From NCBI GenBank assembly GCA_965248695.1, contig CBDFKD010000002.1:2176001-2240000 (forward strand): a DNA stretch of 64,000 bases, read 5' to 3'. This DNA comes from Acidobacteriota bacterium (GTDB taxonomy: Bacteria; Acidobacteriota; UBA890; WLXD01). A program made the translations under genes and the position numbers. Numbering within the stretch: position 1 is the stretch's first letter; every line of letters starts with the position of its first letter. This document shows positions 56,139 through 64,000 of this stretch, one piece after another. The notes beneath the pieces were generated by a model. It had not been told where the DNA came from and did not search any database. It was given only the letters and a program-made list of their open reading frames with translations.

Positions 56139-56990
56139 TCAGTCGATAGTCGTCAGTAGGTCGTAGATTCGATTCAGCTCTTCCAGCGACGTGAAGGTTA
56201 TTTCGACCTTCCCGCGTTCCTTGCCACGAATGGCAACTGGCGTGCCCAGCGACTTCGCCAGCCGTTCTTCCGCGGCCGCTACGTCGGGATCGCGCGGAGG
56301 CGGGTTGGTCGCCTCGTTCCGTGGGCTGTTCTCTGTGCGGACGCGTGCTTCAGTCTGGCGAACGGTCAGACCGCGTGCGACGATTTGCGACGCGACGCGA
56401 AGCTGTGCCGCTGCCGATGAAAGCCCGAGCAGAGCGCGAGCGTGCCCCATCGTCAGGTCTCCGTCAACGAGTTGCTGCTGGATCGTCTCCGGTAGCGATA
56501 GAAGGCGAAGATAGTTCGCCACCGTCGAGCGCTCCTTGCCAACCCGAGCCGCGGTCTTCTCCTGCGTCAAGCCCATCTCATCGACCAGGAGGTGGTAGGC
56601 GCGCGCTTGTTCGATCGCGTTGAGGTCCTCGCGCTGGAGGTTCTCGATCAGCGCCAGCTCGAGCGACTGGCGCGGTGTGGCCTCTCGAACGACCGCTGGG
56701 ATGCGGTCAAGGCCGGCCCGCTGCGCGCCACGCCAGCGCCGCTCTCCGGCAATCAACTCGAAGCCGTTCTCCGATTCGCGCACGACGATCGGTTGCAATA
56801 CACCGTGCGCCTTCAACGAGTTGGCCATCGACTCGATGCTTTTGTCGTCAAAGCTCTCCCGCGGCTGCTGTGGGTTGGGCCGGATGAGATCGATCTCCAG
56901 CTCGAGTAGCCGCGCGCCCGTCGGACCGGCCGCCGCCACTTCAGCCGGTATCAACGCGTCAAGGCCGCGCCCGAGTACCTTCCGTGCCAT
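56139..56990 (-). CDS. parB: Chromosome partitioning protein ParB
   Basis: LGRGLDAL, NPQQPR, IAGERRWR, ENLQREDL. Confidence 0.98.
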   Translation of the reverse strand: MARKVLGRGLDALIPAEVAAAGPTGARLLELEIDLIRPNPQQPRESFDDKSIESMANSLKAHGVLQPIVVRESENGFELIAGERRWRGAQRAGLDRIPAVVREATPRQSLELALIENLQREDLNAIEQARAYHLLVDEMGLTQEKTAARVGKERSTVANYLRLLSLPETIQQQLVDGDLTMGHARALLGLSSAAAQLRVASQIVARGLTVRQTEARVRTENSPRNEATNPPPRDPDVAAAEERLAKSLGTPVAIRGKERGKVEITFTSLEELNRIYDLLTTID

Positions 56991-57765
56991 TCCGTACCAC
57001 CTCGCGCATCAGTTTCAGGTAGGCCTGCGCCCCAGCAGAACGCAGATCGTACAGGATGATGGGTTTGCCGAAGCTCGGCGCCTCACCGAGACGCACGTTT
57101 CGTGGTACCTCGGCGGCAAACACGTCGTCGGGGAAATGGCGACGCACGTCAGTGATCACCTGCCGGGTGAGGTTCATTCGGGGGTCGACCATCGTCAACA
57201 GGATACCCTCGAGCCGGAGCTCGGGGTTCAGTCCGCGGCGCACTCTGTCGACGGTCTCCAGCATGCGGCTGAGACCCTCCAGCGCCAGATACTCGCACTG
57301 GATGGGGACGATCACGCTATCGGCCGCAACTAGGGCGTTGAGCGAGAGCAATCCGAGTGCGGGCGGACAATCGATAACGATGAACCTATAATCGGGCCGT
57401 ATCGGGACAAGCGCCTTTCGCAAGCGCGTGGCACGGTCGGTGGCGTCAACGAGCTCGAGCTCGGCGCCCACTAGAGCTGGCGCCGCAGGCGAAACCACCA
57501 GGCGATCGAGAGCGGCGGGTAGCACCGTCTCGGCCAGGGTCGCGGAGCCGCTCAGAACGGAGTAGGTGGTCGGGTGGCCGTCTGGCACGGCAACGCCAAG
57601 GCCGCTGGTGGCGTTAGCTTGTGGATCGATGTCGACCAGCAACGTCGGCAGGTCGGCCGCCGCCAGGCAGGCGGCCAGGTTGATCGAAGTGGTGGTCTTG
57701 CCGACTCCGCCCTTCTGGTTGGTGACGGCAATCACTCGTGTTATGCCGTTTCCCGTGCCCACCAC
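56959..57765 (-). CDS. parA: Chromosome partitioning ATPase ParA/Soj
   Basis: NQKGGVGKTT, DIDPQANAT, DCPPALG; GTG start behind GGGAGGT. Confidence 0.97.
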   Translation of the reverse strand: MVGTGNGITRVIAVTNQKGGVGKTTTSINLAACLAAADLPTLLVDIDPQANATSGLGVAVPDGHPTTYSVLSGSATLAETVLPAALDRLVVSPAAPALVGAELELVDATDRATRLRKALVPIRPDYRFIVIDCPPALGLLSLNALVAADSVIVPIQCEYLALEGLSRMLETVDRVRRGLNPELRLEGILLTMVDPRMNLTRQVITDVRRHFPDDVFAAEVPRNVRLGEAPSFGKPIILYDLRSAGAQAYLKLMREVVRNGTEGTRARP

Positions 57766-57870
57766 GGCGGCACTAACCTCCCTCGACCCTTCGTTGTGAT
57801 TGACGCAGTAACGCTGCTCGCCATCGCGAGCACCGGAGCCTACCACAGCGACACTGGCCATCCGCTTACT

Positions 57871-57886
57871 CGTTCCACGTGGAACA
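57871..57886. promoter_or_regulatory. parS: parS centromere site 1
   Basis: CGTTCCACGTGGAACA matches the TGTTNCACGTGNAACA palindrome. Confidence 0.93.
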
Positions 57887-57896
57887 CGGGTGCGCT

Positions 57897-57912
57897 TGTT
57901 CCACGTGGAACC
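57897..57912. promoter_or_regulatory. parS: parS centromere site 2
   Basis: TGTTCCACGTGGAACC. Confidence 0.93.
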
Positions 57913-57945
57913 CACCCGCGACCCCGCAGGTTTCCTGCTAGTCGG

Positions 57946-58650
57946 CTAGGTGTGGAGCTCGAGCGACACCAGGTAGCCGCGGTCGAGGTGGGGCAATGGG
58001 GCTGCTTTCTTTATCGCCCAGCCGGCCCGGGCAGCTCGACGCCAGCTCCGGTCGCTCGCCTTGCCCATCGACCCACCGGCCGACAGGTTGCGGCGCAGCG
58101 CCCGCAAGGTCTCCTCGCCAACGAACAACAGGCCCCGGCCACCGGGCGCCATGACCGGGGCGACCCGCCCCAGCATCGTGCCCCATTCGGTCCAGGCGCG
58201 CGCCGTAACCACATGCACTGGCGTCCCGACGGTGCCCGCGTCGATCGCGTCCCCGAGTCGCTCGTTGACGATCGAGACACCTTCCAGACCGAGGGCGTCG
58301 ACGACCTCCATAAGGAACGTCGCCTTCTTGGCGTTGGCTTCCACCAACACGCTATCGCGGTCCGGGTCCAGGAGCTTCAAGGGCAGTCCCGGAATCCCGG
58401 CACCGGAGCCGACATCCAACACCACCGGTCCGGCGCCCGCCAGATACCGGAGTGCCATCGCCGGCTCAACGAAGTGTCGCAAGACGGCTGTGTCTCGATC
58501 GCGGATGGCCGTCAGGTTAATGCGCTTGTTCCAGCGCTCGAGCAGCTGTAGGTAGAGGGCGAATTGCTCGACTTGCTCGGTACCGATGTGGAAGCGGAAG
58601 CGCTCGAATCCATCCCGAATCGCCTGTGCGGTACCGTCGGCGTCCGGCAC
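57946..58650 (-). CDS. rsmG: 16S rRNA m7G527 methyltransferase (GidB)
   Basis: WNKRINLTAI, LDVGSGAGIPG, VTARA. Confidence 0.94.
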   Translation of the reverse strand: MPDADGTAQAIRDGFERFRFHIGTEQVEQFALYLQLLERWNKRINLTAIRDRDTAVLRHFVEPAMALRYLAGAGPVVLDVGSGAGIPGLPLKLLDPDRDSVLVEANAKKATFLMEVVDALGLEGVSIVNERLGDAIDAGTVGTPVHVVTARAWTEWGTMLGRVAPVMAPGGRGLLFVGEETLRALRRNLSAGGSMGKASDRSWRRAARAGWAIKKAAPLPHLDRGYLVSLELHT

Positions 58651-58651
58651 G

Positions 58652-59701
58652 TCAGCGCCGGTGGCCTCCGTCGGTAGGAATCACGTTGACCGCTTTCTGG
58701 AATCCATTGCCAATACTACGCGTCTTGACCTTGGGGTCTTCTGCCAAGGTGAGATGCACGATGCGGCGCTCGTACGGATTCAACGGCCCCGTCTGTTGCG
58801 GCGAGCTCGTCTCTTTCGCCTGATGTGCCACCTGGTACGCCATATCGCGGATCTCGTCGTCGAGCTGAGACCTGAAGTCGCCGGCGTCGACACGCACCCG
58901 CCGGTGGGCGCGGTCGGGGCGGTGCCGGAACGCGTGATTCAAGATGAGCTCCAGCGCTGACAGGCCACGTCCGCGGCCATCCAGCAAGTACTGGTTATCG
59001 TCGCCAGTGATCGCGATCTGCAGTGTCTCCCCGTCGAGCCTCGCTTCGGCCTCGCAATCGAAATCGATGGTCTCGAAGATCGTGTCGAGGAGTGCGATGG
59101 CCTCGCCGGAAACGTCGGTGCCGCCCTCGCCGTCCGCGCCCGGGCTGCGAGATTGGTCGCCTTCGGGGGGTGGCGCTTCGGCCGTGGTACCGGTGGATGA
59201 GACGTCCTCCGATGCCGCTAGGTCGTCGCTGACAGCCTCGTCGGCCGGCACCGCGGGGGCGGCTTGCTCCGAGGCGACACTGGACGCCTGAAAGAAATCC
59301 GGCACTCCGTCGGCATCTTCCGCGGCAGGCTGGGCCGACTCCGGAACATCAGGGTCCGGCTGCTGATCGTCCACCTCGGGCGGCTCAGCGTCGCTTGCGT
59401 CGGAAGACTTGGCGTCGGGCGTGTCGGAAGAATCGGCATCGGCCGCGTCAGAAGGCTCGGCATCGGCTTCTTGGACGGGCGTCTCTGCCACCGCGGCCTC
59501 TTCCTCGGGTTGCTCCGGGTCGGGCGCTTCACCGCGCCGCCAAGCGCGCACCGAGTAGACCGTATCGCCCAGGCCCCAGAAGTCGCCGGCCTTCTCATCC
59601 ACCAGCTCGTGCTCGAGTTCGTCGACCGCAACCCCCAACGCGGCCGCCGCCTGTTCGAGGGCAGCCTCCAACGACTTGGCTTCGAATACCTGTGCGCTCA
59701 T
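58652..59701 (-). CDS. jag: RNA-binding protein Jag/EloR/KhpB with long acidic linker
   Basis: Jag_N AKSLEAAL; KH domain; R3H motif NPYERRIVH. Confidence 0.92.
   Translation of the reverse strand: MSAQVFEAKSLEAALEQAAAALGVAVDELEHELVDEKAGDFWGLGDTVYSVRAWRRGEAPDPEQPEEEAAVAETPVQEADAEPSDAADADSSDTPDAKSSDASDAEPPEVDDQQPDPDVPESAQPAAEDADGVPDFFQASSVASEQAAPAVPADEAVSDDLAASEDVSSTGTTAEAPPPEGDQSRSPGADGEGGTDVSGEAIALLDTIFETIDFDCEAEARLDGETLQIAITGDDNQYLLDGRGRGLSALELILNHAFRHRPDRAHRRVRVDAGDFRSQLDDEIRDMAYQVAHQAKETSSPQQTGPLNPYERRIVHLTLAEDPKVKTRSIGNGFQKAVNVIPTDGGHRR
59390..59466 (-). repeat. Degenerate 24-bp tandem repeat in the jag linker (DAxxSDxx)
   Basis: About three copies: DAEPSDAA / DADSSDTP / DAKSSDAS. Confidence 0.6.
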
Positions 59702-61452
59702 CGCTTGCCTCTCCGGCGTTTCTTGGCTTTGGGAAGAGCCTTCTCCGCCGCAAGCTCCGCGTCCATCTTGTTGTTGACGTAGAGCTGTTGCGCGATTCCG
59801 AGAAGGTTGTTCACCAACCAGTACAGAACTAGTCCGCTAGGTACGTATAGGAAAAGTACGGTGAAGATCACCGGCATGAACTTGAACATTCGCGCCTGCA
59901 TCGGGTCTGCGCCCGGCGATGGCGTCATTCGTTGCTGCGCCAGCATGCTGCCGCCCATCAACAAAGGCAGCACGAGGTACGGGTCATAGTCCGACAAGTC
60001 CTGCACCCATAGGGCGAACGGCGCCTGCCGGAGCTCTACCGCGACCGACAGCAGCCGATAAAACGCGAACAGGATCGGAAGCTGCGCCAGCATCGGCAGG
60101 CAGCCACCGAATGGTGACACCCCCTCGCGCCGATACAGCTCCATTACCTCCTCGTTCATCTTCTGGCGCTGTTCGAGCTCCTTGGACCCCTTGTACTTGC
60201 CACGAATCGCTGCCATCTGCGGCTGTAGGCGCTGCATGCGCCGCATGGAGACCATGGATTTGTGGTTCAGCGGCAAGAAAACGAGCCGCAGCAGCACCGT
60301 CAGCAGGATGATGGCGACGCCGTAGTTGCCGACAAACGAGTGGATCCAAACAAGCAGAGCCAAGAGGGGGCGAGCGAGGATTCCCATCCAACCGAAGTCC
60401 ACCGCCAGACCAATCTCGTACCCCTGCTGAAGCAGGTAGTCGTATTTCTTCGGACCGAGATAAATGCCCGCGGTCAGCCCTTCGTCCGGCACCGCCGTTG
60501 CAACGCTTGCCAGCGCCACCAGGGGCTCGGCGGCGGCGGCGATACTCGACACCTCCCGGCTCGAGATTCGAACTTCCCTCGGCTCATCGAACAGGAAGGC
60601 TCCCAGAAAATAGTGGCTCTCCGTGCCCACCCAACGGACCGGACCGGAGGCGCTGACCGCCGGATCGGGCTCGGGCGGTACCCAGCGCTCCACGTCCTCG
60701 GCCACGAGCGCCAAGGCGCCGGCACCGAGGAAAACGTTGCGCGACCCGGCTGCAACCTCGTCCAGCCCGGCACCCAAGGAAAGGAACGGGTCGGACGCAC
60801 CGGTGGTGGCCTCCACCCGAACACGCAGCTGGTTGCCGGCAGCCGGAAACTCGATTCGCTTGGACACCGATGCACCGCCACCGTCCGCCCAGCGAAGTGT
60901 GACGATCACCGGGTCACCCGGTCGCGGCGTGCGCTCGCCGCCCCGCTCGACCCCACCGCTGGTCTCCATTACGAAGAGCGCTGCATTCACCGCCTCGCCG
61001 ATGGCGGGGTTGCTCGGGGTCGAGAGGCCGAGCGGCAGCACGTCCGCCGCGGCGGCGGCGGGATGGACGAGATCCAGAGGCGAGCGCTCGGCAGATTCGT
61101 ATTGGTTCAGCACGAAAGCCTGCAACCGCCCGCCGCGATTGGTAACCGTCGCGGTGTAGTTGTCGGCCCGTATCCGCAGGGTTGTTTCCTGTTGCGCCAC
61201 TATCGCGGCCGCCGCCTCATCCGCACCGAAAGCCGCTGCCGCCGGTCCGGTCTCGAGCGGAGCCGGCGGTGCGGGCTCGCCGTCTGCTGCGGGCGTCGCC
61301 TCTCCGCCAGCGTCTGTCGGTCCGGGTGGTGGCAGCAGCGGTGCGTCGACCGCGGGAACGAAGTAGTGCTGGTACAGCGCCAGCACCGCCATCGACAGCA
61401 CGATCGCGAGCAGCGCCCGCGATTCCATTCTCGGTTCCTGGTCGTTATTCAT
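59698..61452 (-). CDS. yidC: Membrane protein insertase YidC
   Basis: [38 protein letters not shown]. Confidence 0.97.
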
Positions 61453-61669
61453 GCACCGTCGGGACCGGGTCGTGGCCCCCCTGACTAAACGGATGGCACC
61501 TGAGGATCCGGCGCGCCGACAGCCACACCCCTCTGAGAGCACCGTGCTGCGCGACGCTCTGATGCGCGTACTCGGAGCAAGTCGGGTGGAACCGACAGTG
61601 CCCCCCGAGTGCCGACGACAGCGTCAGCTGGTAAAGCCGGATCAAACCGAGCAGGCTGCGCGTGATCAT
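61445..61669 (-). CDS. yidD: Membrane protein insertion efficiency factor
   Basis: [24 protein letters not shown]. Confidence 0.96.
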
Positions 61670-62019
61670 GTCGGCGACTCGGTTGCGCGGGCGGCGACCG
61701 CAATCAGCTCCGGGAGTAGATCGTCGGGGCTGCTGTGGGGCGCATCTTTCCGCGCCACGACGACATAGTCGTAGCCGGCGCGAAAACCGTCTCGGCGCCG
61801 GCGATACGCCTCCCGGAACACGCGCCTCGCACGGTTCCGCACCACGGCGTTGCCAATTCGGCGGGTGGCGGTGAAGCCGATACGTGGGTGCTCCAGACCG
61901 TTGGGGCGAGCGAACAAGACAAACCTCGGCGCTACGTGCTTCGTGCCCTCTGCGTACACCCGCTCGAACTCCGAGCGTTTGCGCAGGCGGTGGGCTCGCG
62001 GGAACCCTTCCGGTCGCAC
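61666..62019 (-). CDS. rnpA: Ribonuclease P protein component
   Basis: [19 protein letters not shown]. Confidence 0.96.
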
Positions 62020-62049
62020 AGCAGGGTATCGGCAGCGGCGGGGGTCAGA

Positions 62050-62187
62050 TCAGGACGGGGCCAACCGCTTGCGACCCTTGCGGCGGCGACGACGAATTAC
62101 GGCGCGCCCGGAACGCGTCCGCATCCGGAGCCTGAAACCATGTACTTTACGCCGGCGGCGGCGGTTGGGCTGAAAGGTGCGCTTCAT
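62050..62187 (-). CDS. rpmH: 50S ribosomal protein L34
   Basis: Not in the ORF track. Hand translation: [45 protein letters not shown]. Confidence 0.97.
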
Positions 62188-62332: not shown

Positions 62333-62571
62333 CTCCGCGTCGACTGCGGGTAGTGGGTCAGTTTCAAGTAATTGGAGCGGACGACGGAAAATACCGGTCA
62401 ATCAGTCGGTGAAAACAACGGACAACCGTGGCCACGGCTACTTTGCTTGTATAATGCAACGAGCCCGATCAGCTCGTAACTGATCAGGCTCGGGCGAAAG
62501 CATATGTGGGATTTTTTAGCCGGACTGGTGGGACCGGCGGGGGAGGCGTTTTGCGCCTCAGCTGTGGGAGA

Positions 62572-62601: not shown

Positions 62602-62652
62602 CCGCACCGGCTTCGTCTATCTGAGAGGAGAAGTTTGGGGCGGGAACAGCTA

Positions 62653-62726
62653 GGCGACGTAGTGTAGCCAGGTAAGCACACTCCCCTGGAAAGGGGGTAT
62701 CGCGGGTTCAACTCCCGGCGTCGCCT
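62653..62726 (+). tRNA. Non-canonical tRNA: anticodon GGA (Ser) on a type-I, U73, tRNA-Cys-like body; CCA not encoded
   Basis: Acceptor GGCGACG/CGTCGCC; D-arm GTGT-AGCCAGGTAA-GCAC; anticodon arm CTCCC-CTGGAAA-GGGGG; variable loop TATC; T-arm GCGGG-TTCAACT-CCCGG; discriminator T. Confidence 0.85.
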
Positions 62727-62968
62727 CTCTTTATTTCCCGCCCCAATTCTCCGTCTCGGGTAAGCGCACTTCACCACTACTCTCAGAGTGTGGGGAATTC
62801 ACTAGCGCGACATCAACCGGATAATCATCCGGGCGTTGCGACGAGTAAATCCAATGCGCTCCAATGGTCTCGGTCCCCTACGTCGTCCGTGTGGGCGGCA
62901 CGACCCGTGCCATTGCGACACTCTAATCCTACTATAAGACATGTGCCATGTGGCATGTAGGCGTTGTG

Positions 62969-63811
62969 CTACGCCGCTGCTTCGTGCCTCTCTAGCAACC
63001 GCACGATGTCTTCGATCTCGTAGATACGGTTCGCAACGCCGGCTTCCATCGCAGGCGTGACGCGCAGCGTCCGGTGAACGCGACAGAAGTTGTAGTACAT
63101 GAAGTGCAGCGCGACGGCGTGAGTCAAGTTCTCCACCTTCTTGCTGAATCCGTTGGTGAGTCGCGTGAAGCGGCGCATGCTCATTCGCATGGTTAGGTTC
63201 TGTCGCTCCACGTAACTTGTGCTCACCAACGCCCGGTCGGGGTGGCCGGTCACGAATCGTTTTCGAACCCCGAGGCACCTAGCGGGCGAATACCGCTTCT
63301 CGGCCTCGGGGTCAGATCCATACACCTTGTGCAGCATGGCGAAGTCAACGTCCGCCATGAAAGCGGCGGGCACCGCGTCGAGATACATCGTGTGCCCGTC
63401 CGTAGTGATCTGTGCGCGGTGGGCAAGTCGTGACGCTAAGTCGCTCATGAAGGCAAACGCGGTGTCTGCGTTGCGGTAGCCGAACCACCACGCCGGCACG
63501 ATCTTGGTGTCAGCACAGATGGATGTGAACGTCCAGACATCGCCGTATCCGAACTGGCCGCGCTTCTCCGGCGGAACGTTCTTTTCCTTCGCGTAGCAGA
63601 ACGCCCAAATCTCGTCGGCTTCCAAGCGGCGGCACGGAAGATCGCGCAGCACGCGGTCTTGGAAGTCGGAACACACCTGGCCGATCTCGGCCAGGAGCTT
63701 GGTGACCGTGTTCTTCGCCGCGCCGGTCATACGGCAAGTCGCACGCATGGAGTTGCCCTCGACCAAGGCCGCAACGATCTCTGTTCGCTTCTCTGTGCTC
63801 AACTGGTTCAT
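62969..63811 (-). CDS. IS1-family single-ORF DDE transposase
   Basis: N-terminal HTH LVEGNSMRATCRMTG; EADEIW (D), TTDG (D), STSYVERQNLTMR (E), RRFTRLTNGFSKK, TPAMEAG. Confidence 0.92.
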   Translation of the reverse strand: MNQLSTEKRTEIVAALVEGNSMRATCRMTGAAKNTVTKLLAEIGQVCSDFQDRVLRDLPCRRLEADEIWAFCYAKEKNVPPEKRGQFGYGDVWTFTSICADTKIVPAWWFGYRNADTAFAFMSDLASRLAHRAQITTDGHTMYLDAVPAAFMADVDFAMLHKVYGSDPEAEKRYSPARCLGVRKRFVTGHPDRALVSTSYVERQNLTMRMSMRRFTRLTNGFSKKVENLTHAVALHFMYYNFCRVHRTLRVTPAMEAGVANRIYEIEDIVRLLERHEAAA

Positions 63812-63818
63812 AGGAGTA

Positions 63819-63847
63819 ATTGTACATGACCGGTCAAGCATAGACAA
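63819..63847 (-). promoter_or_regulatory. Transposase promoter with palindromic spacer; probably leaderless
   Basis: TTGTCT-ATGCTTGACCGGTCATG(17)-TACAAT-7nt-ATG. Confidence 0.7.
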
Positions 63848-63884
63848 GGTGAAACAGCGCCCCCTTCACGACGGCTTGGTCTAG

Positions 63885-63998
63885 CTAGGGCTTGATCACG
63901 CCTTGGTCGATTGCCCGTCTCACGCCTTCGCGTACAAGCGCGAGAGCAACCCCTGTGGGGGTCTTCTCGTACAGGTCCGTTTCCGCTAAACGCACGAG
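63885..63998 (-). CDS. 3' end of a small protein, possibly ribbon-helix-helix (truncated by window edge)
   Basis: Hand translation ...LVRLAETDLYEKTPTGVALALVREGVRRAIDQGVIKP*. Confidence 0.4.
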   Translation of the reverse strand, partial: LVRLAETDLYEKTPTGVALALVREGVRRAIDQGVIKP

Positions 63999-64000
63999 GT

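What the first reader, a model, noticed from the sequence alone, without database searches (positions are those of the whole stretch)
62653..62726. Identity-mismatched tRNA: serine anticodon GGA on a short-variable-loop, U73, cysteine-like body
Seen: a complete cloverleaf with U8, A14, G18G19, U33, TTCAA T-loop and a G15:C48 pair. The anticodon is GGA (62688-62690), but the variable loop is only 4 nt (TATC), the discriminator is T, the acceptor starts GGC, there is a G49.G65 mismatch, and CCA is not encoded. Established: bacterial SerRS needs the long variable arm and tRNA-Ser normally has G73. A GGC start, U73, a short variable loop and a CTGCAAA loop describe tRNA-Cys, and this loop (CTGGAAA) differs from it by one base. 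The 49-65 pair tunes EF-Tu binding. Inference: it could be a natural mistranslator (Cys or another residue at UCC/UCU), a non-translational or decoy tRNA (e.g. against anticodon nucleases), or a decayed/mis-sequenced tRNA-Cys. An 8/4 refold using U8.G65 is possible but leaves only a 1-nt connector.
Basis: partly seen in the sequence, partly recalled or inferred. Interest (0 to 1): 0.85.

Follow-up and report, generated by a model that had tools for sequence, protein, structure and literature searches.

The report
Odd tRNA carried by a transposon
A well-folded tRNA gene whose serine anticodon does not match its cysteine-type charging signals rides inside an IS1-family jumping gene, and relatives of that jumping gene in many bacteria carry similarly mismatched or stop-reading tRNAs.

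Summary
Window 62653-62726 (+) is a high-scoring tRNA (Rfam 52.6 bits; ARAGORN) with anticodon GGA, a 4-nt variable loop, U73, a GGC start, a G49.G65 mismatch and no encoded CCA.

It is not a one-off or an assembly slip. The same genome has a second, very divergent tRNA in two identical copies with the same GGA loop, GGC start, U73 and 4-nt loop. Three more were found in metagenomes. Across these five, 15 of 21 stem pairs show changes on both sides.

The window's copy lies inside a 3,160-bp IS1-family transposon with conserved terminal inverted repeats and an exact 8-bp target duplication. This element sits between rpmH and dnaA. The other genomic copy and one metagenomic copy sit next to homologous transposases (40-43% identity).

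Of 104 related elements from other genomes with both ends found, 15 carry tRNA-like genes. These include GCU on an arginine-like body and UUA (ochre) on long-arm bodies.

A model of the GGA class ranks canonical tRNA-Cys first among normal tRNAs.

My best reading is a selected, mobile, non-serine tRNA, probably weakly charged with cysteine. Its function is inferred, not shown.

The parts
62342..62349 (.). Left copy of the 8-bp target-site duplication (CGACTGCG). The right copy lies just past the right end of the element, at genome C2:2241509-2241516, beyond the window.
   Evidence: sequence; exact 8-bp match at both element borders.
62350..62368 (+). Left terminal inverted repeat of the IS1-family element (GGTAGTGGGTCAGTTTCAA). 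Its partner ends at L003:5509, which is C2:2241508, 1,508 bp beyond the window end. The element is 3,160 bp long.
   Evidence: this repeat motif flanks the transposase in nearly all of the 84 loci. In run X3 the contigs break at 62348/62349.
62621..62647 (+). 5' arm of a long leader/trailer stem that clamps the tRNA. It includes the perfect 12-mer TTGGGGCGGGAA at 62636-62647.
   Evidence: repeat I10: 12 nt, 100% complementary. (141-nt fold -77.7 kcal/mol, z -7.18, 0 of 200 shuffles as good). (both arms are unique in the genome).
62653..62726 (+). Non-canonical class-I tRNA gene: anticodon GGA (62688-62690), 4-nt variable loop, U73, G1-C72 / G2-C71 / C3-G70, G49.G65 mismatch, no encoded CCA.
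   Evidence: class membership.
62736..62759 (+). 3' arm of the leader/trailer stem (TTCCCGCCCCAA followed by further pairing).
62969..63847 (-). Single-ORF IS1-family DDE transposase (292 aa from a TTG start; the conserved part starts at the Met at 63814). It is convergent with the tRNA.
   Evidence: Pfam DDE_Tnp_IS1 21.9 bits, below its cut-off of 24.1. NCBIfam IS1 50.9 bits, below its cut-off of 100. Homologs on plasmids with 50-57% identity are annotated 'IS1 family transposase'. At least 581 relatives in genome contigs.
63848..64000 (.). Start of the remaining cargo of the element, which continues beyond the window to C2:2241508. That cargo holds a 67-aa ORF beside a 16+16-nt palindrome, a DUF3800 gene split over two frames, and an 83-aa basic ORF.
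   Evidence: (repeat I2).

Best explanation
This is a structurally intact, non-canonical tRNA gene that travels as cargo of an IS1-family transposon.

Shown:
- The gene lies about 300 bp inside the left end of a 3,160-bp element. The element has 19-nt terminal inverted repeats and an exact 8-bp target duplication, so the tRNA moved with the transposon.
- It belongs to a recurrent class with a CUGGAAA loop, G1-C72 / G2-C71 / C3-G70, U73 and a 4-nt variable loop. The stems of this class have turned over by compensatory change while these positions stayed fixed.
- Three of the five class members sit next to transposases of this same family.

Inferred:
- The RNA is made as a long hairpin precursor, with a leader/trailer stem of about 26 bp that would suit RNase III. 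It is then trimmed by RNase P and 3' nucleases and given CCA.
- SerRS should not charge it, because it has no long arm and no G73.
- The acceptor end is the cysteine signature, so the single CysRS probably charges it. Charging should be poor, because C35 of the GCA anticodon is G here.
- My committed mechanism is therefore low-level delivery of a non-serine residue, most likely Cys, to UCC/UCU codons, that is, a mobile missense suppressor.

My sub-odds:
- a functional RNA under selection and mobile as cargo: about 0.85
- not serylated: about 0.9
- actually decodes on the ribosome with a non-Ser residue: about 0.45
For: A second class member is present as two identical copies (C1 c1975-2050 and C2 5220443-5220518) in the unbiased whole-genome ARAGORN list of 59 tRNAs. 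It is only 46-47 of about 74 positions identical to the window's copy, yet shares the loop, the GGC start, U73 and the 4-nt variable loop.

In the metagenome pattern scan, 3 of the 80 returned loci held the pattern inside a tRNA fold.

Covariation on the 5 members: 95.2% of cells are paired, 15 of 21 pairs have changes on both sides, 0 of 500 shuffles reach this, and slid controls give at most 9 pairs.

Exact 8-bp duplications bound 11 of the 14 tRNA-carrying elements examined.

Transposase links:
- The window's copy lies inside the element.
- The second genomic copy lies 198 bp upstream of a transposase that is 43% identical.
- L146 was found through the tRNA pattern alone. Its tRNA lies 404 bp upstream, on the same strand, of a transposase that is 40-43% identical.

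Census of relatives: 14 of 104 external elements with both ends found carry a tRNA-like gene. One more, L033, was assigned by hand.

Cys-like signature: the class model gives 75.5-75.8 bits to members, then 70.2 bits to canonical tRNA-Cys and 65.1 bits to tRNA-Asp. The top hit is tRNA-Cys in 18 of the 25 other genomes of the order.

Identity rules, from passages read in PMC9976931: U73 and GCA are the major Cys determinants, U73 alone gives Cys identity to minihelices, and Ser identity rests on the variable arm. From passages read in PMC5389517: some CysRS forms charge tRNA-Cys with a UCA anticodon.

U8, A14, G18G19, G15:C48, U33, A37, G53, T54-C56, A58 and C61 are all present.
Against: No expression, processing or charging data exist. 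No RNA run was listed for this sequence.

G35 replaces a major CysRS determinant, and the genome has only one CysRS and no synthetase in or near the element.

The carriers' own transposases use the target codons at conserved serines. The window's copy has TCC at a column that is Ser in 66 of 69 sequences, and the second copy has TCC at a column that is Ser in 67 of 69. GCU-carrying relatives use AGC/AGT at columns that are Ser in 69 of 69. Efficient mistranslation would therefore damage the element itself.

In passages read from Mukai et al. 2017, comparable irregular acidobacterial tRNAs were charged but not used in translation in E. coli, or were inactive.

By overall identity this copy is closest to tRNA-Asp, not tRNA-Cys.

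The three metagenomic members were selected by a pattern that fixed GGA, the spacing and GCCT. They therefore cannot test conservation of those positions.

Some IS-borne tRNA-likes are visibly degenerate, with 6-nt loops or broken anticodon stems (L082, L064, L004).

The window's copy has a G49.G65 mismatch.
Confidence: 0.45

Rival explanations
1. It is a tRNA-shaped RNA that works for the transposon without decoding. Possible roles are a processing or stability signal for IS transcripts, an antisense or regulatory RNA for the transposase, or an anticodon-loop decoy or partner for a tRNA-targeting protein such as a toxin or nuclease. In this reading it is uncharged, or charged but kept off the ribosome.
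For: In most carriers the tRNA-like gene lies 81-404 bp upstream of the transposase on the same strand, at distances that are conserved between related elements: 177 and 179 bp in L033 and L044, 81 and 81 bp in L014 and L018.

In the window (and in L064) it is convergent with the transposase, so read-through would be antisense to the 3' end of the transposase gene.

Long leader/trailer stems are present: about 26 bp here, about 14 bp in L082, and 6 bp in L033 and L044.

The elements use the cognate codons at invariant serines.

Passages read from Mukai et al. 2017 report irregular tRNAs that were charged but not translated, and an association with transposable elements and toxin-antitoxin loci.

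Small ORFs beside palindromes lie in the cargo regions.
Against: A pure processing signal would not need a fixed anticodon loop. Yet CUGGAAA is identical in the two unbiased members although 4 of the 5 anticodon-stem pairs differ between them. GCU is kept in four Arg-like carriers whose anticodon stems differ.

The position and orientation of the tRNA within the element are not conserved across the class.

No tRNA-targeting toxin domain was found in the cargo.
Confidence: 0.3
2. It is a captured host or phage tRNA gene that is redundant on a mobile element and drifting neutrally towards a pseudogene. In this reading the anticodon/identity mismatch is an accident.
For: Ends of this IS family abut ordinary tRNA genes within 100 bp in 7 of the 104 elements with both ends found (L017, L019, L051, L073, L285, L286, L342). 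In L033 and L044 an internal end-like sequence lies 54 bp past the tRNA, which fits capture of a neighbouring tRNA.

Several IS-borne tRNA-likes are degenerate.

This copy has a G49.G65 mismatch and resembles the host tRNA-Asp in its D and T arms.
Against: All universal tertiary positions are intact.

Two unbiased members share four rare features at once: GGA, U73, a GGC start and a 4-nt variable loop. I estimate the joint chance at well under 1e-3.

95% of stem cells remain paired, with 15 of 21 pairs changed on both sides.

The same class occurs with three transposases that are only 40-43% identical.
Confidence: 0.12
3. It is a genuine serine isoacceptor that the host SerRS charges despite the short variable loop.
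For: Only the anticodon supports this. G2:C71 is present.
Against: It lacks the long arm and has U73. [quoted passage not shown]

A canonical 90-nt tRNA-Ser(GGA) already exists in the genome. The class model ranks Cys, Asp and Thr tRNAs, not Ser, after the members.
Confidence: 0.03
4. It is a sequencing or assembly error in a tRNA-Cys gene.
For: The loop differs from the host tRNA-Cys loop CTGCAAA by one base.
Against: Contigs from 4 runs cover it with 0 differences, although all come from one sample.

The genome has its own canonical tRNA-Cys beside tRNA-Gly and CysRS. The rest of the molecule is only 49 of 74 positions identical to that gene.
Confidence: 0.01

Closest known systems
Irregular and allo-tRNAs of Acidobacteria (Mukai et al. 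2017, Nucleic Acids Res., PMC5389517; passages and section 16 read)
   Same: They come from soil bacteria of the same phylum. They are tRNAs whose anticodon disagrees with their charging elements. They include a U73 species with a GCU anticodon and GGU species that HisRS charges. The authors suggested a link with transposable elements and toxin-antitoxin loci, and found them in metatranscriptomes.
   Different: Allo-tRNAs have 8/4 or 9/3 acceptor branches and long variable arms, whereas this one is 7/5 with a 4-nt loop. 'GGA' does not occur in their main text. They reported one pseudogene overlapping a transposon-related ORF, not tRNAs as defined cargo between IS ends with target duplications. 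Their supplementary figures, which list the irregular tRNAs, could not be read and may contain this class.
selC* tRNA-Cys(UCA) with or without CysRS* (Mukai et al. 2017; reviews PMC7609411 and PMC11415595, passages read)
   Same: A U73 cysteine-type tRNA carries a non-GCA anticodon, so Cys goes to a non-Cys codon.
   Different: Those tRNAs mimic tRNA-Sec (8/4 structure, long arm), read UGA, and in some genomes have a dedicated CysRS lacking the anticodon-binding domain. Here the body is ordinary class I, the codons are sense (UCC/UCU), and there is a single CysRS.
tRNA-ProX / ProRSx deliberate mistranslation in Streptomyces (review PMC11415595, passages read)
   Same: These are genetically encoded bacterial tRNAs with dual identity, combining the body of one isotype with the anticodon of another.
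   Different: Those come with a dedicated synthetase paralog. None is in or near this element. They are not reported as IS cargo in the passages read.
IS1 family insertion sequences
   Same: The DDE transposase is homologous to IS1 transposases. The terminal inverted repeats start GGTAGTG, and the target duplications are 8 bp. My recollection, not from any call, is that IS1 ends start GGT and that IS1 makes 8-9-bp duplications.
   Different: The transposase is a single ORF of about 275-310 aa rather than a frameshifted insA/insB' pair. It scores below the curated cut-offs of both Pfam and NCBIfam. The elements have a median length of 3.1 kb and carry cargo. I recall an ISfinder subgroup of long IS1 relatives with passenger genes (ISMhu11), but a search for that name found 0 papers.
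Phage-encoded tRNAs and suppressor tRNAs (recalled, no paper read here)
   Same: These are tRNA genes carried by mobile DNA, sometimes with stop-reading anticodons. In viral contigs, 164 relatives of this transposase were found, and some carry UUA tRNAs.
   Different: Here the carrier is a DDE transposon, and the tRNA lies between its inverted repeats.

Membership tests
tRNA (Rfam RF00005) | Cloverleaf match at or above the family's gathering score | tested here: met
   52.6 bits against a gathering score of 29, full length, + strand only. ARAGORN agrees.
tRNA (Rfam RF00005) | Universal tertiary nucleotides (U8, A14, G18G19, R15:Y48, U33, R37, G53, T54-Psi55-C56, A58, C61) | tested here: met
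   All can be read directly in the sequence.
Bacterial tRNA-Ser | Long variable arm (class II) | tested here: not met
   The variable loop is 4 nt (TATC). The genome's four canonical tRNA-Ser genes are 90-97 nt long.
Bacterial tRNA-Ser | G73 discriminator | tested here: not met
   T at 62726.
Bacterial tRNA-Ser | Serine anticodon | tested here: met
   GGA at 62688-62690. The anticodon is not a SerRS determinant (PMC9976931).
Bacterial tRNA-Cys | U73 discriminator and G1:C72 | tested here: met
   Read in the sequence. Both are invariant in all 5 class members.
Bacterial tRNA-Cys | GCA anticodon | tested here: not met
   The anticodon is GGA: G34 and A36 are kept, C35 is replaced by G.
Bacterial tRNA-Cys | Best isotype by profile scoring | tested here: inconclusive
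   The class model ranks canonical tRNA-Cys first among normal tRNAs (70.2 bits, against 65.1 for Asp). However, this copy alone is nearest to tRNA-Asp by identity (54 against 49 of 74). No tRNAscan-SE isotype models were available.
Bacterial tRNA-Cys | Charged by CysRS | not testable with these tools
   This needs an aminoacylation assay.
Bacterial tRNA-Asp | G73, GUC anticodon, C38 | tested here: not met
   It has U73, GGA and A38. Only the D and T arms resemble the host tRNA-Asp.
Allo-tRNA and 8/4 or 9/3 tRNAs (Mukai 2017) | Acceptor stem of 8 or 9 bp with a T stem of 4 or 3 bp, plus a long variable arm | tested here: not met
   The fold is 7/5 in Rfam and in both models built here. Pair 49:65 is a standard pair in 4 of 5 class members. 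The variable loop is short.
Dedicated mistranslation pair (tRNA plus synthetase paralog, such as tRNA-ProX/ProRSx or selC*/CysRS*) | A second, specialised synthetase gene, usually adjacent | tested here: not met
   One full CysRS match in the genome, plus one weak match lying in a 578-aa frame. Five class-II core matches, none near the element. No synthetase among the element's ORFs.
IS1-family transposon | Transposase homologous to IS1 DDE transposases | tested here: inconclusive
   IS1 is the best family in both libraries but scores below their curated cut-offs: Pfam 21.9 against 24.1, NCBIfam 50.9 against 100. Plasmid homologs with 50-57% identity are annotated 'IS1 family transposase'.
IS1-family transposon | Terminal inverted repeats flanked by a short target duplication | tested here: met
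   The ends are GGTAGTGGGTCAGTTTCAA and GGTAGTGGGTCAGTTTGAA with the duplication CGACTGCG. Of 104 related elements with both ends found, 72 show an exact 8-bp duplication.

The most novel reading that the evidence does not exclude
A widespread lineage of IS1-family transposons acts as a vehicle for suppressor tRNAs. This would make them mobile modifiers of decoding that spread across bacterial phyla and phages. The suppressors include missense types (GGA on a Cys-type frame, GCU on an Arg-type frame that keeps A20, C35 and U36, UGG and UGC on Leu-type long-arm frames) and a nonsense type (UUA, ochre). The same lineage also tends to land beside ordinary tRNA genes, which is how it would acquire them. 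The window's tRNA would be one working example, inserting Cys at UCC/UCU.
Probability: 0.3. Interest if true: 0.85.

Novelty: new variant of a known kind. Interest (0 to 1): 0.74.

Why it matters
Natural tRNAs that break the anticodon-identity rule are rare, and each case tests how much ambiguity cells tolerate.

This work shows that such genes are not isolated oddities of one genome. They are recurrent cargo of a defined transposon family, with clear ends and target duplications, found in at least ten phyla and in viral contigs. That gives them a route for horizontal spread and a reason to persist independently of host benefit.

It also gives experimenters compact natural units to test for charging, decoding and effects on transposition. 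One element of 1,323 bp contains only the ends, a UUA tRNA and the transposase.

If the tRNAs decode, they are candidate orthogonal or mistranslating tRNAs for synthetic biology. They would also be a caveat for automated annotation, which labels them tRNA-Ser, tRNA-Pro or tRNA-Stop.

If they do not decode, they point to an unknown use of a tRNA shape by a DNA transposon.

Tried and rejected
Recoding lock. I tested whether the transposon needs its own tRNA to read 'wrong' codons in its transposase. In an alignment of 69 transposases, the 5 TCC/TCT codons of the window's copy and the 6 of the second copy never fall at a Cys-consensus column. Two fall at conserved Ser columns. The AGC/AGT codons of three GCU carriers fall at columns that are Ser in 68-69 of 69 sequences, and none falls at a column whose commonest residue is Arg. 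The two UUA carriers have transposase frames without in-frame stops. Rejected.

Dedicated synthetase. None was found.

8/4 refold. It is not supported by the class.

Mirror tRNA on the minus strand (loop UUUCCAG, anticodon UCC). No tool calls a tRNA on that strand.

Expression. No RNA holder was listed for the stretch, so nothing can be said about expression.

Close homologs of this copy. A DNA search of 401 genomes of the phylum found only tRNA-Asp and short generic matches. A class-model search of all 26 genomes held for the order found members only in this genome. The class was not found in the genomes searched.

IS ends. Within-locus repeat searches did not reveal them. They appeared only on comparing loci. 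Ends were not found for L146, or for the left side of the second genomic copy, so 'inside the element' is shown only for the window's copy. The second copy lies in a 2,559-bp segment, identical in two places, whose right border is the IS end.

Clamp arms as a repeat family. Both arms are unique in the genome.

MAFFT alignment A5. It placed gaps in the acceptor stem and was not used. A6, aligned to the model, replaced it. Its pair counts therefore lean towards the structure.

Transposase tree. The tree (132 rows, quick method) places the GGA, GCU and UUA carriers in separate places. However, the transposases of the second copy and of L146 are long branches joined with support of only 16. I use the tree only as a hint of cargo exchange or repeated gain.

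Literature. Searches found no paper describing suppressor or mismatched tRNAs as IS cargo. That is a statement about those searches only.

Tools and files not available. 
Full report
**Observation.** The feature is real and is as described. ARAGORN finds a single tRNA in the window, at 62653-62727 (+), anticodon gga. Rfam's tRNA model matches 62653-62726 end to end at 52.6 bits, against a gathering score of 29. The sequence shows:
- a 7/5 cloverleaf with acceptor GGCGACG / CGTCGCC
- U8 and A14
- G15 with C48
- G18G19
- anticodon loop CTGGAAA, with GGA at 62688-62690
- a 4-nt variable loop TATC
- T arm GCGGG-TTCAACT-CCCGG, with a G49.G65 mismatch
- discriminator T, and no encoded CCA

The fold is better than all 200 shuffles. 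Contigs assembled from four sequencing runs cover the gene without a single difference. All four runs come from one sample, which may be the window's source. The anticodon is therefore not an assembly slip.

**Not a one-off.** The window is G000:C2:2176001-2240000, in a 5.89-Mb genome with 65% G+C. ARAGORN on the whole genome lists 59 tRNAs. These include canonical long-arm tRNA-Ser genes for GGA, CGA, TGA and GCT, and a canonical tRNA-Cys(GCA). The list also holds a second short 'Ser GGA' tRNA in two identical copies (C1 c1975-2050 and C2 5220443-5220518). That tRNA is only 46-47 of about 74 positions identical to the window's copy, no more than to unrelated tRNAs. Yet it has the same CTGGAAA loop, the same GGC start, U73 and a 4-nt variable loop, while most of its stem pairs differ from the window's copy, many of them compensatorily.

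A metagenome scan used a pattern that fixed this loop, the spacing, the T loop and GCCT. In 3 of the 80 (L182, L162, L146) the match lies in a good tRNA fold. On the five members, 95.2% of stem cells pair and 15 of 21 pairs show changes on both sides. No shuffle out of 500 reaches this, and slid controls give at most 9 pairs. Two caveats apply. The alignment is fitted to the model. The three metagenomic members were selected for the fixed positions, so only the two genomic members test those positions without bias.

**The gene is transposon cargo.** The ORF next to the tRNA (62969-63847, minus strand) is a single-ORF DDE transposase. Its best family in Pfam and in NCBIfam is IS1, though below both curated cut-offs. 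Plasmid homologs are annotated 'IS1 family transposase'. The second GGA tRNA is followed by a homolog that is 43% identical. A third homolog in the genome has a tRNA-Sec/allo-tRNA-like structure beside it.

Relatives of the transposase are very common. There are at least 581 in one-genome-per-species contigs from many phyla and 164 in viral contigs, and 80 loci were returned from each collection. Comparing these loci exposed highly conserved terminal inverted repeats with consensus GGTAGTGGGTCAGTTTGAA. In the window's locus the repeats lie at window 62350 and at C2:2241508, which is 1,508 bp past the window end. They delimit a 3,160-bp element flanked by an exact 8-bp duplication, CGACTGCG.

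The tRNA is inside this element, about 300 bp from the left end and convergent with the transposase. The rest of the cargo is a 67-aa ORF beside a palindrome, a DUF3800 gene split over two frames, and an 83-aa basic ORF. The element sits in the rpmH-dnaA intergenic region. In one run the contigs break exactly at the left end.

**The association is general.** I took a census of the 160 external loci.
- 137 have a recognisable transposase frame.
- 104 have both ends.
- 72 of those 104 have an exact 8-bp duplication.
- The median element length is 3.1 kb.

A tRNA model built from nine of these tRNA-likes (R1) finds a tRNA-like gene between the ends in 14 of the 104 loci. Four of those loci hold the same element. 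One more, L033, was assigned by hand. Exact 8-bp duplications bound 11 of the 14 tRNA-carrying elements that I checked individually.

The cargo tRNAs are mostly mismatched or odd:
- GCU on a body that starts GCCCC and keeps A20, C35 and U36 (L011, L033, L044, L265). These are the arginine determinants according to PMC9976931.
- UUA on long-arm bodies with A73 (L269-272, L315).
- UGG on a long-arm body (L047).
- CGU, CGG, CUG and AGU species.
- Glycine-type loops with irregular stems (L018, L298, L299).
- Several with 6-nt loops or broken stems (L082, L064, L004).

L315 is a minimal element of 1,323 bp that contains only the ends, the UUA tRNA and the transposase.

L146 was retrieved through the tRNA pattern alone. 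Its GGA tRNA lies 404 bp upstream of a transposase of this same family that is 40-43% identical to the two in the genome. So 3 of the 5 GGA-class members are linked to this IS family. A fourth, L182, lies in tandem with a long-arm UGG tRNA, beside an ImmA/IrrE peptidase gene and a phage-domain ORF.

On a quick transposase tree, the GGA, GCU and UUA carriers are each scattered. This would fit cargo exchange or repeated gain, but two of the GGA carriers are long branches, so I give the tree little weight.

In 7 of the 104 elements, ordinary tRNA genes lie within 100 bp outside an IS end. In L033 and L044 an internal end-like sequence lies 54 bp past the tRNA. Both observations suggest that the family lands beside tRNA genes and sometimes captures them.

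**What charges it?** SerRS is very unlikely, because the long arm and G73 are missing (PMC9976931). The fixed acceptor features are G1:C72, G2:C71, C3:G70 and U73. Together with G34 and A36 they form the cysteine signature. A model of the five members (R2) scores the members at 75.5-75.8 bits. The next hits are the genome's canonical tRNA-Cys at 70.2 bits and tRNA-Asp at 65.1 bits. In 18 of the 25 other genomes of the order, its best hit is the canonical tRNA-Cys.

Part of that ranking comes from the loop and end positions themselves. By plain identity the window's copy is closest to the host tRNA-Asp (54 of 74 positions), sharing the D arm and the T arm.

The genome has one CysRS and no synthetase in or near the element. 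U73 alone confers Cys identity on minihelices (PMC9976931), and some CysRS forms accept a UCA anticodon (PMC5389517). Weak cysteinylation is therefore plausible, but it is untested.

**Precursor structure.** The tRNA is clamped by a leader/trailer stem of about 26 bp. The 141-nt fold gives -77.7 kcal/mol, z -7.18. The arms are unique in the genome. Shorter extensions occur in relatives. I infer processing from a hairpin precursor, possibly by RNase III, but this is not shown.

**Evidence against strong mistranslation.** The elements' own transposases use the target codons at conserved or invariant serines, and never at positions where the family has Cys or Arg. In passages read from Mukai et al. 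[quoted passage not shown] No RNA data were available for this locus.

**Verdict.** The gene is a selected, mobile, non-serine tRNA of a recurrent class, carried by an IS1-family transposon.

I commit to a low-level missense suppressor (probably Cys at UCC/UCU) as the most likely mechanism, at about 0.45. The main rival is a non-decoding role for the transposon, at about 0.3. Neutral decay of a captured tRNA comes third, at about 0.12.

Compared with known systems, it works most like the irregular tRNAs of Acidobacteria and like selC* tRNA-Cys. It fails the defining structural tests of allo-tRNAs. It has no dedicated synthetase, unlike tRNA-ProX or selC*/CysRS*. My six literature searches on this point found no description of mismatched or suppressor tRNAs as cargo of an insertion sequence.

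Noticed in passing
G000 C2:1268414-1270599 (L001:4415-6600); tRNA-like at L001:5369-5460 (+): A third IS1-family element in the same genome (2,186 bp, 8-bp duplication AGGTCCCG) carries an allo-tRNA/tRNA-Sec-like structure. It has an acceptor stem of about 9 bp and a long variable arm (Rfam tRNA-Sec 28.8 bits, E 0.083). ARAGORN does not call it. In the minimum-energy fold the 7-nt loop reads GUUUACA, which would be a UUA (ochre) anticodon, but this reading is tentative.
   Followed up: partly
L315:2521-3843; L269:1224-4938 (the same element also in L270-L272): IS1-family elements in viral contigs carry long-arm tRNAs with A73 and a UUA anticodon (ARAGORN labels them 'tRNA-Stop') just upstream of the transposase. 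L315 is a minimal 1,323-bp element with the tRNA as its only cargo and an exact 8-bp duplication. The transposase frames have no in-frame stops.
   Followed up: partly
L011:967-1039, L033:2250-2323, L044:2249-2321, L265:2798-2870: Four IS-borne short-arm tRNAs have a GCU anticodon on a body that starts GCCCC and keeps A20, C35 and U36, which are the ArgRS determinants. They occur in two well-separated transposase clades. If charged by ArgRS, they would read the serine codons AGC/AGU as Arg.
   Followed up: partly
G000 C2:1586595-1586681 and C2:5218723-5218809: Two identical 87-nt long-arm tRNAs (Rfam 58.2 bits) have a TGC (Ala) anticodon and A73, on a body typical of class II tRNAs. This is another identity mismatch. 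One lies 1.6 kb upstream of the second GGA tRNA, near a 72-nt 'Arg cct' call at C2:5217564.
   Followed up: no
L047:4125-4209 and L182:1212-1295: These are long-arm bodies with A73 and a UGG (Pro) anticodon. One is inside an IS1-family element. The other is in tandem, 4 nt after a GGA/U73 tRNA.
   Followed up: no
L005:1561-4666 (Acidobacteriota genome contig) compared with window 62350 onward: The closest transposase relative (75% identity) also sits between the rpmH-side flank and the dnaA-side flank. It is in the opposite orientation, has no tRNA, and has a different 8-bp duplication (CCGCCACC). This points to an independent insertion into the same origin-proximal intergenic region.
   Followed up: partly
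L017, L019, L051, L073, L285, L286, L342: Ends of this IS family lie 49-95 bp from ordinary tRNA genes (Met, Ala, His, Gly, Ile, and an array of Leu genes). The end consensus contains TCAGTT, as tRNA D arms do, and one tRNA-Gly matched the end motif with 3 mismatches. This may reflect a target preference for tRNA genes.
   Followed up: no
G000 C1:2565-2884 and more than 50 places in C2: A repeat of about 316 bp occurs at 100% identity in more than 50 copies across the genome (a MITE-like element). One copy abuts the duplicated segment that holds the second GGA tRNA.
   Followed up: no
G000 C2:4678307-4678404 and C2 c5559422-5559519: Two tRNA-Sec calls share an identical 3' part of about 75 nt but differ in the 5' part. 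This looks like the duplicated attachment site of an element integrated in selC.
   Followed up: no
L003:4262-5120 (C2:2240261-2241119), minus strand: The DUF3800 gene in the element's cargo is split between two overlapping frames (Pfam 23.4 and 22.1 bits for the two pieces). It is probably frameshifted.
   Followed up: partly
window 56139-62187, minus strand: This is an ordinary origin-region gene string: parB, parA, rsmG (GidB), jag, yidC, rnpA, rpmH. dnaA and dnaN lie on the far side of the transposon.
   Followed up: yes
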